From a virus (Duplodnaviria; Heunggongvirae; Uroviricota; Caudoviricetes): DNA of 6,359 nucleotides. Numbering within the stretch: position 1 is the first letter of the stretch; every line of letters starts with the position of its first letter. Below the pieces are notes generated by a model that was not told the origin of the DNA, made no database searches, and worked only from the letters and a program-made list of their open reading frames with translations. The stretch is from positions 1 to 6,359 of IMG/VR virus record IMGVR_UViG_2695420514_000020; one strand, given 5' to 3'. Of the stretch, positions 777 to 5,512 are shown piece by piece. Position numbers and translations under genes: made by a program.

Positions 777-779
777 GCA

Positions 780-811
780 CTGTGTATTCATTCCAACGAG
801 TGAATACACGG
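780..811 (+). other. inverted repeat / stem-loop without a U-tract
   Basis: GTGTATTCA (782-790) pairs with TGAATACAC (801-809); the stem extends with C780-G811 and a T781/G810 wobble; 10-nt loop. No T-run follows, so this is not a canonical terminator. It sits in the 185-bp non-coding gap. Confidence 0.4.
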
Positions 812-871
812 AGCAATGTCGCTCGTAACTAAACAGGAGCCGACTTGTTCTGATTATTGGAAATCTTCTTT

Positions 872-1132: not shown

Positions 1133-1236
1133 GTTTTACAGATAACTGGTCAGACGAAGAATTCATTCGTCAGATGAACAAAATGCTCAATCAGCACAAA
1201 GAACAGGAGAAAGATGATGATTCTGACTCTGAATGA
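1129..1236 (+). CDS. hypothetical small acidic protein (35 aa)
   Basis: ATG 1129 overlaps the CIII-like stop (ATGA). Weak SD AAGG (1119-1122). Product MSFTDNWSDEEFIRQMNKMLNQHKEQEKDDDSDSE; stop TGA 1234-1236. It is below the track length cutoff and overlaps the next gene start by 23 nt. It occupies the kil-like position. Confidence 0.35.
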   Translation: MSFTDNWSDEEFIRQMNKMLNQHKEQEKDDDSDSE

Positions 1237-1525
1237 TAAGCGTGAAATATCGCAAATAATCGCAAGTTTTACTGATGAAGATTACGAACGAATCAACAGT
1301 GAAGTTGATCGTCTCTGCAAACGTTGCGACCCCATAAGCGAAATGCTTCGCTCATATAAACCAGATGAACACACTAAGGACGCTATCGACTGGCTGGAAG
1401 ATGATGACTGTAACTATCAGGAAAAAGCCGCTGAATGGTTCTGGGATGCAATAACCGAAAGAGTTAAGGCTGAATATGCCTTCGCAATATTCAAACGCAG
1501 ACATATTTATGGAGAAGCTGCATGA
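1214..1525 (+). CDS. hypothetical protein (103 aa) immediately upstream of recT
   Basis: Tandem ATGs at 1214 and 1217 follow AGGAGA (1205-1210). Stop TGA 1523-1525 overlaps the recT ATG (ATGA). No family recognised. It occupies the gam-like position. Confidence 0.6.
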   Translation: MMILTLNDKREISQIIASFTDEDYERINSEVDRLCKRCDPISEMLRSYKPDEHTKDAIDWLEDDDCNYQEKAAEWFWDAITERVKAEYAFAIFKRRHIYGEAA

Positions 1526-2424
1526 GCAATATCGTTGAATTCGTTAAACAGCAAGAGCAGTTATTCTGCGGAGCATTGACTGAACAGACGGTGACATGGG
1601 CTAAGGAAAGCCAGTTTGCAATTCAGTATTTCCAGAAAAATGATTACCTGGCTAAAACAGCACTGGCAAATCCAACCAGCGCACAGAACGCCATCATCAA
1701 TGTTGCGGCGATCGGCATCACCTTAAACCCGGCCAGCAAACTGGCTTATCTGGTTCCTCGCGACGGCATGGTGTGCCTTGATATCAGTTACATGGGATTA
1801 CTTCATCTTGCGCAATCGACAGGATCAATTAAGTGGGGGCAATGCAAACTGGTGTACTCAAACGACACCTATGAATCAAATGGCCTTGATTCAGCACCAA
1901 CCCACAAATACAACGCATTTGGTGAGCGAGGCTCTATTGTTGGAGGTTATTGCACGGTTAAAACAGCAGATGGTGACTACCTGACTGAAGAAATGAGTCT
2001 GGCAGAAATTAAAGCTGTGGAAGCAACGAGCAAGGCAAAGAATGGACCGTGGAAAACATTCTGGGAAGAGATGGCGCGTAAAACAATAGTTAAACGCGCC
2101 AGCAAATACTGGCCTAAAGCCCAGCGACTGGATAATGCCATTCACCTTCTTAACGAAGATGAAGGTATGCATCAGGAACCAGTTATGCCGCACAAATCAG
2201 AGGAAGATATCCGCGAAGATGAACGGAAACGCCAGCAGGAAATAATGGATAAAGCACAACTTCTTTGCGATGAAATGGCTCAGGCAGAAAACATGGACGA
2301 TTTGAAGCGATATTTTGCAGAAGCATATCGCCTGACATCTGGAATGAAATTGCAGCAGAACGTACAAGCCATTTACATAGAATGCAAAGCGAAACTGGAG
2401 GTTGCCAGTGAGCAAACTGTATGA
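1522..2424 (+). CDS. recT: RecT-family single-strand annealing recombinase (300 aa)
   Basis: The segment NGPWKTFWEEMARKTIVKRASKYWP closely matches the Rac RecT segment NGPWVTHWEEMAKKTAIRRLFKYLP (from memory). Length and surrounding residues are consistent. SD GGAGAAG (1511-1517). Confidence 0.85.
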   Translation: MSNIVEFVKQQEQLFCGALTEQTVTWAKESQFAIQYFQKNDYLAKTALANPTSAQNAIINVAAIGITLNPASKLAYLVPRDGMVCLDISYMGLLHLAQSTGSIKWGQCKLVYSNDTYESNGLDSAPTHKYNAFGERGSIVGGYCTVKTADGDYLTEEMSLAEIKAVEATSKAKNGPWKTFWEEMARKTIVKRASKYWPKAQRLDNAIHLLNEDEGMHQEPVMPHKSEEDIREDERKRQQEIMDKAQLLCDEMAQAENMDDLKRYFAEAYRLTSGMKLQQNVQAIYIECKAKLEVASEQTV

Positions 2425-2890
2425 AATTGCCAATGAATACGCAAAATTGATGGATTCAGATTTAGAACCAGAGATGATTGCTGACACAATAGAAGGCATG
2501 GAAGGAGAATTTACCGATAAAATAGAGCAACTTCTCGCCATTATTAAAAATGAATCTGGTTATGCTGAACGCCTCAAGGAAGAGGCAAAGTCACTAAATG
2601 AGCGAGCCGTAGTAATTCAAAATAAGATTGACAGCATTATGGCGTATATAGCGTCATCGCTTGAAATGGTTGGCAAGAAAAAGATTCGAGCAGGTATTCA
2701 CCAGGTAACAATCCGCAAACCGTCAGAAACTGTAGAAATCATCGACTCAAGCGCCCTTCCTCCTGAATACGTTGAGTTCGAAACGACAATTAAAGCCGAC
2801 AAACTGGCAATCAAACACCAACTAAAAGCAGGAATAAATATCCCCGGTGCTCAACTCAAAGTTGGGAAACCTTCACTTCTTATCAAATAA
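2408..2890 (+). CDS. Siphovirus Gp157-like protein (about 160 aa), common RecT companion
   Basis: GTG 2408 is 6 nt after GGAGG (2397-2401); the track starts at in-frame TTG 2402. Overlaps the recT 3' end by 17 nt. N-terminal KLYEIANEYAKLMDSD...DTIEGMEGEF followed by a coiled-coil region fits my memory of the Gp157 family (PF05565), which typically sits beside RecT or Erf. Confidence 0.6.
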   Translation: MSKLYEIANEYAKLMDSDLEPEMIADTIEGMEGEFTDKIEQLLAIIKNESGYAERLKEEAKSLNERAVVIQNKIDSIMAYIASSLEMVGKKKIRAGIHQVTIRKPSETVEIIDSSALPPEYVEFETTIKADKLAIKHQLKAGINIPGAQLKVGKPSLLIK

Positions 2891-2901
2891 CGGTATCGCC
2901 T

Positions 2902-3216
2902 ATGAAAAAGACTCCATGGGAGAAATGGGAAGTCGATTTCTTGCGCGAAGTAGCGGCGACAATGCCAGTTGAAGTTATCGCTGAAAAACTGGAAAGGACT
3001 GAAAAAGCAGTTATGGCGAAAGCAACAAGGATTGGCGCTGACATTGTTAGCCGACTTCGTGGAAGACGCTGGACAAGAGCCGAAGTATCACTTTTCGGTA
3101 AGTTCTCCGCAGAAGAAATAGCAATTGCAACCTGCCGCTCAATTTATTCAGTAAGAGCTATGCGATACAAGCTAAAAAAACTCGATGAAGAAAGAGCAGG
3201 CATACGAATAAATTAA
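2902..3216 (+). CDS. putative DNA-binding protein with two tandem Myb/SANT-like HTH repeats (104 aa)
   Basis: ATG 2902, 11 nt after the upstream stop, with no strong SD. Two internal repeats share a W-x(2-3)-E-x(2)-L ... EEIA ... R(T/S)-x(3)-(A)VR pattern: [12 protein letters not shown]...[21 protein letters not shown] and [37 protein letters not shown]. Confidence 0.55.
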
Positions 3217-3232
3217 CAAAGAGGAATTTACC

Positions 3233-3397
3233 ATGAGAGGACTTGCATACAATCCCGGCATTCTTCCGGCAGAAATGATTATTCGCCAACGCGTAAAGCC
3301 AATGCCATCGAGAGAGGAATTGCTTAAGAGAAATTCTTTTCCATCAGTGAATCAAAACAAATATCTGAATGCGATGTTGCGGAGTGGGAAGAAATGA
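3233..3397 (+). CDS. hypothetical small protein (54 aa)
   Basis: ATG 3233 preceded by AAGAGGA (3219-3225) with a 7-nt spacer. Stop TGA 3395-3397 overlaps the next ATG (ATGA). Below the track cutoff. Confidence 0.45.
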
Positions 3398-3906
3398 AAC
3401 AAATGACACTAATTGAGATGGATGGTTTTCTGAAAGGTAAATGCATCCCAAGCGATTTAAAGGTTAACGAAACAAACGCTGAATATCTTGTCCGTAAGTT
3501 CGGTGAACTTGAATCAAAACTGGAAACGGCGTTGCGGGAGTGTCGTTCTGCTGGAATCACGATTGATAACCTTGAGGCTAAATGCACGAAGATGGCTGCT
3601 GAAAATACATCGCTTAAGCAATCTGAGAAGGAATTTAATGACTTTTGTCGTGAGGAGTTTAGCGAATGGGAAGATGATGTTACTGAAACTCCAGCCACCG
3701 ATGCTTTTCTGTCTGAAGTGCGGGCGCAGGGGGTGGATGCTGCTATAGAAGCTGCAAAAAATCTGGTGGCCCAAGAATATGAGTATAAGGATTTCAAAGC
3801 GGCGCAGAGTGATTGCTGTATGCACCCTGGTTCAGACCTGGTAGGGAAGGTTGAAATGACTGAGTGGTTAGTTGACTTTGCTGCCCAGCTTCGCAAAGGA
3901 GAGTGA
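3394..3906 (+). CDS. hypothetical coiled-coil protein (170 aa), possibly Ead/Ea22-like
   Basis: Long + strand ORF with a heptad-like charged helical middle ([44 protein letters not shown]). GGAG 3381-3384 upstream. The antisense ORFs across it are Ser-rich low-complexity shadows. Confidence 0.65.
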
Positions 3907-3907
3907 T

Positions 3908-4465
3908 ATGACCACTATAACCGATAAGAAACAGTATCCAGGCGAGCAATATCTTAATGAGCTGATCACCAACATAGAGTTTGCTGCAAGAGCACCAGTT
4001 GAAGTCGTGAGAGCGATGGCTGCAGAGCTACAGAAGCGGCGCGAAGCTGATAGTGCAGAACCTGTAAGCCAAACTTACAAGTTGCCAGTTAATACACCTT
4101 GCCAAGATGCGCCAGCCCATATCTGGCTGCAAACGGCTGGAGTATGGCCAGAAGATGGCGAGTTAAGCGAATTAACGTGGTGCAGCCACAATCAGCACCA
4201 TGATGACACGCTATATGTTCGAGCTGACCTTGTGAATGGCAACTCTCCGGGAACTCCGGATGGTTGGATAAGCTGTAGTGAGCGAATGCCAGAGGACGGT
4301 CAGCACGTAATTATTTTATGTGATGGCGCATTCGTTCTTTATGCGCAATATCGAGACGGTGAGTTTTTCGATATTGTCCGCAATGGTGATGAATTTTTTG
4401 AAACACAGAGCCGCAATGTAACACACTGGATGCCGCTACCAGAACCGCCGCAGGAGGCAAAATGA
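3908..4465 (+). CDS. DUF551-like domain phage protein (185 aa)
   Basis: ATG 3908 preceded by AAGGAG (3896-3901) with a 6-nt spacer; the track start at 3872 lies inside the upstream gene. The C-terminus DGWISCSERMPEDGQHVIIL...VTHWMPLPEPP matches the DUF551 signature as I recall it. Confidence 0.7.
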   Translation: MTTITDKKQYPGEQYLNELITNIEFAARAPVEVVRAMAAELQKRREADSAEPVSQTYKLPVNTPCQDAPAHIWLQTAGVWPEDGELSELTWCSHNQHHDDTLYVRADLVNGNSPGTPDGWISCSERMPEDGQHVIILCDGAFVLYAQYRDGEFFDIVRNGDEFFETQSRNVTHWMPLPEPPQEAK

Positions 4466-5200: not shown

Positions 5201-5212
5201 ATGGAGATGATT

Positions 5213-5512
5213 ATGACTTGTTCAACATTCAACCCTTTAACGTTACAGAAATACCATCCAGACCCTGAAGATTTATGCTCACTGTGTGGCGGAAATCATG
5301 GTAAAGCCGCCATGATCGAATGTAAGGACAAAATCCACATATGCCTTAATTGCGTTGATGTCCTCGTTGATATCAAAAATGAAAGAGAAGATAAAAAGCG
5401 TAGCGAGGCTATTCGCGCCTTAGATTCATGGATGCGAGATGGGTATAGTGCTGCGCAAATTTATGACTTAGCCATTTCAAAAGGCGAAATACCAGGTGTG
5501 CGAATCGAATAA
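5213..5512 (+). CDS. zinc-ribbon-containing hypothetical protein (99 aa)
   Basis: ATG 5213 is 5 nt after GGAGA (5203-5207); in-frame ATGs at 5201 and 5207 are alternatives. CSLCGG ... HICLNC gives a CxxC-x18-CxxC pattern. Confidence 0.65.
   Translation: MTCSTFNPLTLQKYHPDPEDLCSLCGGNHGKAAMIECKDKIHICLNCVDVLVDIKNEREDKKRSEAIRALDSWMRDGYSAAQIYDLAISKGEIPGVRIE

What the first reader, a model, noticed from the sequence alone, without database searches (positions are those of the whole stretch)
2902..3216. Small protein built from two tandem Myb/SANT-like helix-turn-helix repeats
Seen in sequence: two internal repeats of about 40 aa each have a conserved Trp, an acidic residue, and an EEIA...R(T/S)...VR helix pattern reminiscent of Myb/SANT or GcrA-type DNA-binding repeats. 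Such tandem-repeat DNA binders are unusual among lambdoid early genes. Inference: it may be a regulator or a DNA mimic/binder targeting host DNA or a defence system.
Basis: partly seen in the sequence, partly recalled or inferred. Interest (0 to 1): 0.45.

Follow-up and report, generated by a model that had tools for sequence, protein, structure and literature searches.

The report
Abc1-like double helix-turn-helix phage protein
This is a real, conserved prophage gene for a small basic protein made of two GcrA/Myb-type DNA-binding units; it is a relative of the long-known but still unexplained Abc1 protein of phage P22 and always sits just after the phage recombination genes, so it is a fairly ordinary member of a known, poorly understood family.

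Summary

The gene is not unusual. It belongs to PHROG 11492/323, the family of phage T5 D5 (a DNA-binding protein) and of P22 Abc1. A model of an Abc1-family protein has the same two-unit architecture and the same structural neighbours. The gene occurs in 5.5% of complete E. coli genomes and in HK140, mEpX1, Gally and Kapi1.

In about 20 contexts it lies directly after the last gene of a recombination module of any type, but just outside the exchangeable cassette. It is basic (pI 10), so it is a DNA binder and not a DNA mimic.

Its function, like that of Abc1, is unknown. The likeliest role is a two-headed dsDNA-binding accessory or regulator expressed with the Rec genes. Novelty is low to moderate.

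The parts
2902..3216 (+). Complete CDS (104 aa plus stop) of the Abc1/D5-like tandem HTH protein
   Evidence: ORF listing. Identical or near-identical proteins occur in phages Gally, mEpX1, HK140, Kapi1 and Louie. Codon-position substitution bias is 8/3/38. PHROG 11492 E=4.6e-23 and PHROG 323 E=2.8e-20.
2917..3036 (+). HTH unit 1 (residues 6-45): helices 8-17, 23-30, 34-44. It carries the nearly invariant W6, E10, F13 and I26-x-E-K-L-E-R32 signature. The putative recognition helix is at nt 3001-3033.
   Evidence: AlphaFold2 model, family alignment A3, hhalign unit 1 vs unit 2 P=6.8e-7.
3037..3069 (+). Basic linker (residues 46-56, [11 protein letters not shown]) between the two units; lower pLDDT (about 68)
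   Evidence: One search measured net charge +3 on segment 45-58.
3070..3180 (+). HTH unit 2 (residues 57-93): helices 59-66, 70-77 and 81 onward. It has conserved W57, E61, T77-x-R79-S-I-Y-S-V-R85. The putative recognition helix starts at nt 3142. This unit is homologous to the C-terminal unit of P22 Abc1.
   Evidence: hhalign unit 2 vs Abc1 C-half gives 94%, P=9.1e-8.
3181..3213 (+). C-terminal tail ([11 protein letters not shown]). It aligns with the tail that follows the third repeat in 3-repeat relatives (IERNGWDVN...), which suggests a deletion derivative.
   Evidence: Alignments A1/A3.
1522..2890 (+). Context: exchangeable recombination cassette directly upstream (RecT 1522-2424; Sipho_Gp157/'MuGam'-type 2402-2890)
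   Evidence: Pfam RecT 2.5e-33 and Sipho_Gp157 1e-36. In SEN22 the cassette is replaced by ExoVIII + phrog_11517, with breakpoints at 1525 and 2902.
3233..3397 (+). Context: DUF2737 gene directly downstream, homologous to P22 orf56, which follows abc1-abc2
   Evidence: Pfam DUF2737 3.4e-32. P22 orf56 falls in the same PHROG 1117. The two genes are co-linear in 79 of 80 IMG/VR copies.
1214..1525 (+). Context: conserved left flank of the Rec cassette (phrog_3486, unknown function)
   Evidence: Nucleotide similarity to SEN22 ends at 1525. The same gene precedes other Rec modules in L085, L100 and L108.

Best explanation
The gene encodes a small, basic, two-headed double-stranded-DNA-binding protein of the Abc1/D5-like family. 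Each ~40-aa unit is a three-helix GcrA/Myb/sigma-region-4-type helix-turn-helix. The third helix of each unit is expected to enter the major groove. The two units, joined by a short arginine-rich linker, would bind adjacent sites, as in c-Myb R2R3 or the bipartite Tc3 domain (inferred). The gene has no promoter or terminator of its own and is transcribed with the recombination genes in the early-left (PL) operon. It occupies the slot that abc1 occupies in P22, directly after the last gene of the Rec module. The most likely role is that of P22 Abc1: a non-essential accessory that acts through DNA binding (architectural or transcriptional) to support phage DNA transactions early in infection or induction. 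It would work with whichever recombinase cassette is present, rather than as a partner of one particular recombinase. Shown here: the gene is real; the tandem HTH fold; the basic charge; homology to the Abc1 and T5 D5 families at profile level; the conserved genomic slot. Inferred: DNA binding, the bipartite binding mode and the biological role.
Against: No direct pairwise similarity to P22 Abc1 (BLASTP finds no alignment). Whole-family hhalign A1 vs A2 gives only 31% probability. Unit 1 vs the Abc1 N-terminal unit is weak (15%), so orthology as opposed to shared domain type is not proven. The gene lies just outside the swapped Rec cassette: similarity to SEN22 resumes exactly at its ATG. The adjacency may therefore reflect operon position rather than function. 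The lambdoid Rec-module survey does not count it as a Rec gene in HK140. The most invariant residues (EKLER at the end of helix 2) are not in the recognition helix, which could point to a protein-binding surface. No candidate operator repeats were found in the window. Abc1's own mechanism is unknown, so 'works like Abc1' explains little.
Confidence: 0.55

Rival explanations
1. It is a sequence-specific transcription factor that acts on host, prophage or satellite promoters and has no functional connection to recombination. On this view its place next to the Rec module is just a conserved position in the mosaic early-left operon.
For: The fold is that of transcription-factor DNA-binding domains such as GcrA, Myb and sigma region 4. 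The recognition helix of unit 2 (R79-S-I-Y-S-V-R85) is strongly conserved. P22 Abc1 triggers P4-satellite-dependent death, mapped to a P4 intergenic region (bioRxiv 10.1101/2023.04.06.535777). The gene lies outside the swapped Rec cassette. RefSeq/PHROG call it 'transcriptional regulator, D5-like'.
Against: No target sites are known and no repeated operator-like motif is present in the window. The linkage to the 3' end of Rec modules of at least five different types is striking. P22 genetics tie Abc1 to recombination proficiency (PMC9836394, PMC12315714).
Confidence: 0.28
2. It is a protein-binding module rather than a DNA binder, using a SANT-like or sigma-region-4-like surface. It would dock on RecBCD, RNA polymerase, or a partner such as the neighbouring Gp157/MuGam-type protein.
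For: SANT domains and sigma region 4 share this fold and bind proteins. The invariant charged EKLER patch lies at the end of helix 2 and the turn, not in helix 3. Whether Abc1 binds RecBCD 'has never been tested' (PMC9836394).
Against: The strongly basic charge is concentrated on the third helices and the linker. The closest structural match is a DNA-bound domain, the GcrA-DBD. The family prototype T5 D5 is annotated as a DNA-binding protein. The gene stays at 91% identity while the upstream partner genes are replaced wholesale, which argues against a cassette-specific partner.
Confidence: 0.1
3. It is a methylation-linked DNA reader or controller, like GcrA, which reads m6A sites. It would be functionally coupled to the orphan DNA methyltransferase that often follows its relatives.
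For: The best structural hit is the GcrA-DBD. Homologs are followed directly, often with a 4-bp overlap, by Dam (PF05869) or N6_N4 methylases in L084, L096, L105, L089, L094, L102 and L104. This holds in 7 of 10 three-repeat contexts against 1 of 9 two-repeat contexts, Fisher p=0.02.
Against: This window has no methyltransferase: the downstream genes are DUF2737, EaE-like and DUF551. GcrA's methyl-pocket residues R33, N34, I37 and G38 (PMC5887438) correspond to E34, K35, M38 and A39 here. That correspondence is a by-eye alignment using the GcrA sequence from memory. The contexts are not phylogenetically independent, and methylase genes are common at this operon position anyway.
Confidence: 0.06
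4. It is a DNA mimic, or not a real gene.
For: Short overlapping ORFs exist on other frames.
Against: pI 10.0 and net charge +8, whereas DNA mimics are highly acidic. There is clear purifying selection, with 30 synonymous vs 9 non-synonymous codon changes. Homologs are conserved across Enterobacterales. The fold is predicted with confidence.
Confidence: 0.01

Closest known systems
Phage P22 Abc1 ('anti-RecBCD protein 1', gp35)
   Different: BLASTP finds no alignment. Abc1's N-terminal unit lacks the W/E/F and EKLER signature and is only weakly related to unit 1. P22 pairs Abc1 with Abc2 and Erf, whereas here the partners are RecT and a Gp157/MuGam-type protein and there is no Abc2. The Abc1 family is narrow, essentially Salmonella only. 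Abc1's biochemical function is itself unknown (PMC9836394).
Phage T5 D5 protein (prototype of PHROG 323)
   Same: Built from the same HTH unit (family HMM 26 bits over several stretches). It is the core member of PHROG 323 (1.2e-71). It is an early protein annotated as DNA-binding.
   Different: D5 is 255 aa with more units and spacer regions, comes from a virulent phage, and sits among replication genes. It is annotated as required for replication and late transcription. Nothing of that kind is known here.
Caulobacter GcrA DNA-binding domain (PDB 5yiu)
   Different: GcrA has a single DBD plus a C-terminal sigma70-interacting domain, which is absent here. There is no Pfam GcrA hit. The methyl-pocket residues are not conserved. 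GcrA is alphaproteobacterial.
Eukaryotic Myb R2R3 / SANT repeats and the bipartite Tc3 transposase DNA-binding domain
   Different: The three regularly spaced Trp residues that define Myb are not kept: only the first is (W6, W57). There is no Pfam Myb_DNA-binding hit for this protein. The link is by fold and through intermediate multi-repeat bacterial or phage proteins.

Membership tests
PHROG 11492 / PHROG 323 (T5 D5-like, includes P22 Abc1) | Significant match to the family profile HMM | tested here: met
   phrog_11492 E=4.6e-23 and phrog_323 E=2.8e-20. Abc1 hits phrog_323 at 1.3e-23 and T5 D5 at 1.2e-71.
P22 Abc1 (functional family: Rec-module accessory) | Two-unit HTH architecture homologous to Abc1 | tested here: met
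   Matching helix layouts. hhalign of unit 2 vs the Abc1 C-unit gives 94%, P=9e-8. The HMM hit is collinear at 21.9 bits. However, BLASTP finds nothing and whole-family hhalign gives only 31%.
P22 Abc1 (functional family: Rec-module accessory) | Gene located at the promoter-distal end of the recombination module in the early-left operon | tested here: met
P22 Abc1 (functional family: Rec-module accessory) | Contributes to phage recombination or anti-RecBCD activity | not testable with these tools
   Requires phage genetics. For Abc1 itself the mechanism is unknown (PMC9836394, PMC12315714).
Myb/SANT (Pfam PF00249) | Match to the Pfam Myb_DNA-binding HMM above the gathering score | tested here: not met
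   No Myb hit at E<=1 for the window protein. Only distant multi-repeat relatives reach it (P0086 at 2e-41).
Myb/SANT (Pfam PF00249) | Three regularly spaced Trp or aromatic residues per repeat forming the core | tested here: not met
   Only the first Trp is conserved (W6, W57). Read by eye from the sequence, the other two expected positions appear to hold aliphatic residues (alignment).
Myb/SANT (Pfam PF00249) | Three-helix bundle with an HTH, arranged in tandem | tested here: met
GcrA (Pfam PF07750) | N-terminal DBD plus C-terminal sigma70-interacting domain; Pfam hit | tested here: not met
   No GcrA Pfam hit. The protein ends after unit 2 and has no extra domain. Only the DBD fold matches.
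Sigma-70 family sigma factor (the PGAP name given to Abc1 homologs) | Region 2 (core- and -10-binding) in addition to region 4 | tested here: not met
   Only weak HTH-level Sigma70_r4_2 matches in relatives and none in the window protein. No region 2 is present.
Known anti-phage defence components (PADLOC) | Match to any PADLOC model | tested here: not met
   No hits.

The most novel reading that the evidence does not exclude
Abc1-family double-HTH proteins may be a conserved early 'signature' DNA-binding factor of lambdoid and P22-like phages that binds specific sites on other mobile elements. P22 Abc1 triggers P4-satellite-dependent killing, so on this reading the proteins would serve as the cue by which satellites or abortive-infection loci sense helper-phage infection. 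The three-repeat relatives, which are translationally coupled to Dam-type methylases, may in addition read adenine-methylated DNA as GcrA does.
Probability: 0.1. Interest if true: 0.6.

Novelty: new member of a known kind. Interest (0 to 1): 0.3.

Why it matters
P22 Abc1 has been an unexplained component of a classic phage recombination system since the 1980s. This analysis shows three things. First, Abc1 is one narrow branch of a wider Enterobacterales prophage family of 2- and 3-unit forms, present in about 5% of E. coli genomes. Second, the family is built from GcrA/Myb-type HTH units shared with T5 D5. Third, the family always sits at the distal border of Rec modules regardless of recombinase type. 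Together these give a concrete, testable hypothesis (a bipartite dsDNA binder that is independent of the cassette) and more tractable E. coli phage models (HK140, mEpX1, Gally, Kapi1) for working out what Abc1-type proteins do. The analysis also corrects misleading database names such as 'sigma-70 family sigma factor' and 'anti-RecBCD protein'. It does not reveal a new kind of system.

Tried and rejected
1. A single-sequence repeat test gave z = -0.13. The repeat cannot be claimed from this sequence alone and needed family profiles.
2. A sequence search of the PDB gave only noise: an antibody light chain and a glycosyl hydrolase, E > 0.4.
3. NCBIfam gave only noise. The best Pfam hit, HTH_12, was below its gathering score.
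4. BLASTP against P22 Abc1 found no alignment. The first whole-family hhalign with low-diversity alignments was marginal (31%).
I replaced it with a hand-made degenerate DNA pattern.
6. The IMG/VR scan returned only near-identical copies. These were useful for linkage but not for diversity.
7. DNA mimic idea: rejected on charge.
8. Sigma factor idea: rejected, no region 2.
9. Defence-system component: no PADLOC hit.
10. RNA element or private promoter/terminator in the region: none.
11. Operator-like repeated DNA in the window: none convincing.
12. orf126 of Silas et al., whose AP-MS profile correlated with that of abc1: fetched from phage SPFM20 and found unrelated.
13. GcrA-like m6A reading: the methyl-pocket residues are not conserved. 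The alignment was by eye using PMC5887438 residue numbers, with the GcrA sequence from memory, so this is a lead only.

Full report
**1. The observation**

The window is a stretch of a lambdoid or P22-like early-left (PL) operon, with all genes on the + strand.
- Gene order: a phrog_3486 gene (1214-1525), RecT (1522-2424), a Sipho_Gp157 or 'Mu Gam-like' gene (2402-2890), the target ORF (2902-3216), a DUF2737 gene (3233-3397), an EaE-like gene (3394-3906), a DUF551 gene (3872-4465), further small ORFs, and an excisionase-like ORF at the right end.
- It is a real gene. Compared with the 85%-identical copy in Salmonella phage SEN22, differences by codon position are 8/3/38, with 30 synonymous and 9 non-synonymous codon changes.
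- The gaps to its neighbours are 11 and 16 bp. No promoter-like or terminator-like site lies beside it on the gene's own (+) strand, and no Rfam family matches. It is therefore co-transcribed with the Rec genes.

**2. Is the internal repeat real?**

From the single sequence, no. A local alignment of residues 1-52 against 53-104 scores no better than shuffled controls (z = -0.13). With family information, yes.
- A 19-member alignment (32-90% identity, A3) split into units gives hhalign probability 92%, P = 6.8e-7 for unit 1 versus unit 2.
- Unit 2 versus a third unit present in ~150-aa relatives gives 99%, P = 3.9e-17.
- The AlphaFold2 model (mean pLDDT 81) shows two three-helix units, H8-17/H23-30/H34-44 and H59-66/H70-77/H81-103, joined by a less confident basic linker.
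- Conserved positions are W6, E10, F13 and an almost invariant I26-x-E-K-L-E-R32 in unit 1, and W57, E61, T77-x-R79-S-I-Y-S-V-R85 in unit 2.

**3. What fold is it?**

- Next come Tc3 transposase HTH domains and Myb/SANT repeats: Cef1/Cdc5, SNAPC4, Reb1, c-Myb R1/R2 and WER.
- The protein itself has no significant Pfam, NCBIfam or PDB-sequence hit.
- An exhaustive profile search finds 2,553 proteins at E <= 1e-3. Many are 300-900 aa long with 5-10 copies of the unit.
- Those long proteins score strongly on Pfam Myb_DNA-binding (2e-41), GcrA (5e-11, above the gathering score) and Sigma70_r4_2.

Formal membership of Pfam Myb or GcrA is not met: only the first of the three Myb tryptophans is kept, and there is no GcrA sigma-interaction domain.

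**4. What family is it?**

- PHROG scans place it in phrog_11492 (4.6e-23) and phrog_323, 'transcriptional regulator, D5-like' (2.8e-20).
- phrog_323 is the family of phage T5 D5 (1.2e-71), annotated as a DNA-binding protein required for replication and late transcription.
- P22 Abc1 also belongs to phrog_323 (1.3e-23).
- The annotators of phage Gally labelled this very protein 'Anti-RecBCD protein 1, similar to P22gp35_Abc1'.

I tested that label.
- BLASTP finds nothing, and a first low-diversity profile-profile comparison was marginal (31%).
- With the diverse alignment, unit 2 matches the C-terminal unit of Abc1 at 94%, P = 9.1e-8.
- The family HMM aligns collinearly with Abc1 across both units (profile 15-93 to Abc1 12-93, 21.9 bits).
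- An AlphaFold model of an Abc1-family protein (97% identical to P22 Abc1) has the same layout: H8-14/H20-26/H31-40, a linker, then H54-65/H70-77/H81-93 (pLDDT 80.7).

The window protein is therefore a distant relative of Abc1 with the same architecture. The relation of the two N-terminal units is weak (15%).

**5. Distribution**

- The exact gene is in 16 phage records: the lambdoid siphoviruses HK140 and mEpX1 and the P22-like phages Gally, Kapi1 and SEN22, among others.
- It gives 293 confirmed stretches in IMG/VR.
- It is in 299 of 5,426 complete E. coli genomes, always chromosomal and always annotated 'hypothetical protein'.
- A degenerate pattern built from the unit-1 signature found 14 loci in the one-genome-per-species collection. 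Eleven are Enterobacterales prophages (Enterobacter, Citrobacter, Scandinavium, Yersinia, Rahnella, Erwinia).
- Across species the three-unit form (152-157 aa) is commoner than the two-unit form.
- Foldseek against viral predicted structures shows many ~100-aa two-HTH proteins in unrelated phages, almost all uncharacterised.

The claim that such proteins are unusual among lambdoid early genes does not hold.

**6. Genomic context**

- In all 80 fetched IMG/VR copies, Gp157 is directly upstream (80 of 80). RecT lies upstream in 79 of 80 and DUF2737 downstream in 79 of 80.
- Divergent homologs sit directly after the last gene of quite different recombination modules:
  - RecT+Gp157 (L096, L098, L103, L108, L089)
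  - RecT+YqaJ exonuclease (L097, L102)
  - Gam+phrog_21613+YqaJ (L084)
  - ExoVIII+phrog_11517 (L085, L092, SEN22)
  - ExoVIII+RecT-like (L100)
  - Erf-like (L105)
  - RecT-like (L107)
  - Erf in P22

- The apparent exceptions (L094, L101) have an upstream 88-aa ORF that is a remnant of phrog_11517.
- The SEN22 comparison is the sharpest. A 91%-identical protein follows a completely different cassette. Nucleotide similarity to the window stops at 1525 and resumes exactly at 2902, the ATG of the target.

The target is a conserved right-hand flank of an exchangeable Rec cassette, with phrog_3486 as the left flank, and not part of the cassette. This fits a generic accessory or an unrelated neighbour. 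It argues against a partner specific to one recombinase. The recent lambdoid Rec-module survey lists HK140 as 'SAP type 4, MuGam, no nuclease, no SSB' and does not count this gene as part of the module.

**7. Mechanism**

- The protein is strongly basic (net +8, pI 10.0). Positive charge is concentrated in both third helices and the linker, and most two-unit orthologs have pI 9.4-10.5. That fits nucleic-acid binding and excludes an acidic DNA mimic.
- By analogy with GcrA-DBD, where the alpha2-alpha3 HTH reads the major groove (PMC5887438), and with c-Myb R2R3 and Tc3, the best-supported model is a bipartite dsDNA binder whose two recognition helices contact adjacent sites. This is inference.
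- For the biological role, the only experimental anchors are on relatives:
  - P22 Abc1 'aids in, but is not essential for' recombination and has unknown molecular function (PMC12315714).
  - Abc1 is an HTH protein whose expression triggers P4-satellite-dependent cell death. The suppressor insertions map to a P4 intergenic region, and the authors propose transcriptional interference (bioRxiv 10.1101/2023.04.06.535777; PMC12373910).
  - T5 D5 is annotated as a DNA-binding protein affecting replication and late transcription.
- I therefore commit to 'Abc1-like, DNA-binding accessory or regulator co-expressed with the Rec genes' at about 0.55.
- Rivals are a pure transcription-factor role unrelated to recombination (about 0.28), a protein-binding role (about 0.1) and a methylation-linked role (about 0.06).

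**8. The methylase lead**

- Relatives are often followed directly by a DNA methyltransferase, commonly with a 4-bp overlap. These are Dam PF05869 in L084, L096, L105, L089 and L094, and N6_N4 in L102 and L104.
- This holds in 7 of 10 three-unit contexts against 1 of 9 two-unit contexts (Fisher p = 0.02, not corrected for phylogeny).
- Given the GcrA-like fold this is suggestive. But the window has no methylase, and GcrA's methyl-pocket residues R33, N34, I37 and G38 (PMC5887438) correspond to E34, K35, M38 and A39 here. That is my by-eye alignment with the GcrA sequence from memory, so it is a lead only.

**9. Verdict**

- The finding is real and the fold call is right.
- The gene is an ordinary member of an already catalogued, functionally unexplained phage family: new member of a known kind.
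- The modest added value is threefold. It ties Abc1, T5 D5 and this widespread E. coli prophage gene together as GcrA/Myb-type tandem HTH proteins. It shows the conserved cassette-border position. It provides tractable E. coli models for the Abc1 question.
- Interest: 0.3.

Noticed in passing
Loci L084, L096, L105, L089, L094 (Dam, PF05869); L102, L104 (N6_N4_Mtase); L101 (C5-like): Relatives of the target, especially the three-repeat forms, are followed directly by a DNA methyltransferase gene, often with a 4-bp overlap. This holds in 7 of 10 three-repeat contexts against 1 of 9 two-repeat contexts (Fisher p=0.02, not phylogenetically corrected). It is suggestive given the GcrA-like fold.
   Followed up: partly
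window 1214-1525 and 2902-3406 versus L111 (SEN22): The Rec cassette (RecT+Gp157, 1522-2890) is exchanged for ExoVIII+phrog_11517 in SEN22, with breakpoints exactly at gene borders. It is bracketed by two conserved flanking genes, phrog_3486 and the target. This is a clean example of cassette swapping.
   Followed up: yes
P0205; P0030/P0032/P0083 (alignment A3); window 3181-3213: Repeat number varies within the family. P0205 looks like unit 1 plus a unit-3-like unit, including the 'ARNGWDRFDPERAA' tail. The window protein's tail EERAGIRIN aligns with the tail after unit 3 of the 3-repeat forms. Two-repeat forms may therefore be deletion derivatives.
   Followed up: partly
L099:4219-4941 (- strand), Scandinavium manionii: A three-repeat family member is fused in frame to a DUF1233 excisionase domain (240 aa) immediately upstream of an integrase gene. 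This is probably a deletion that joined the two genes.
   Followed up: partly
P0084, P0086, P0095, P0100 and others; T5.108 at L110:4546-7332: There is a large metagenomic population of 300-900-aa proteins with 5-10 tandem copies of this HTH unit. It includes a helicase fusion (P0086: ResIII + Helicase_C + 7 Myb hits). T5.108, annotated 'replication origin binding', is noted in its record as a helicase with a SANT/Myb domain.
   Followed up: partly
P0053-P0066 (P22 Abc1 homologs in Salmonella genomes): NCBI annotation names Abc1 homologs 'sigma-70 family RNA polymerase sigma factor' on the strength of a Sigma70_r4_2 HTH hit alone. They are 94 aa and have no region 2, so the name is an over-annotation.
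   Followed up: yes
L101 (contig JBKEAL010000209.1, 'Parachlamydiaceae' MAG, 3.4 kb): This short contig carries an enterobacterial-type three-repeat family member with TraR-like and methylase-like neighbours. It is probably a mis-binned or contaminating Enterobacterales prophage fragment.
   Followed up: no
window 777-814: A near-perfect hairpin (17-nt arms, 82% complementary, 4-nt loop) lies in the short gap between ORFs ending at 776 and starting at 816. Its function was not examined.
   Followed up: no
window 5201-5512: A 103-aa ORF (phrog_3680, unknown function) has a weak ClpX-type C4 zinc-finger match (E=0.015) and a CxxC...CxxC pattern.
   Followed up: no
L085:5432-6001, L092:513-1112, L111:2932-3501 (phrog_11517, ~189-199 aa): An uncharacterised protein consistently follows ExoVIII/DUF3799 nucleases, in the place where an annealase would be expected. 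It is a candidate for an unrecognised single-strand annealing protein type.
   Followed up: no
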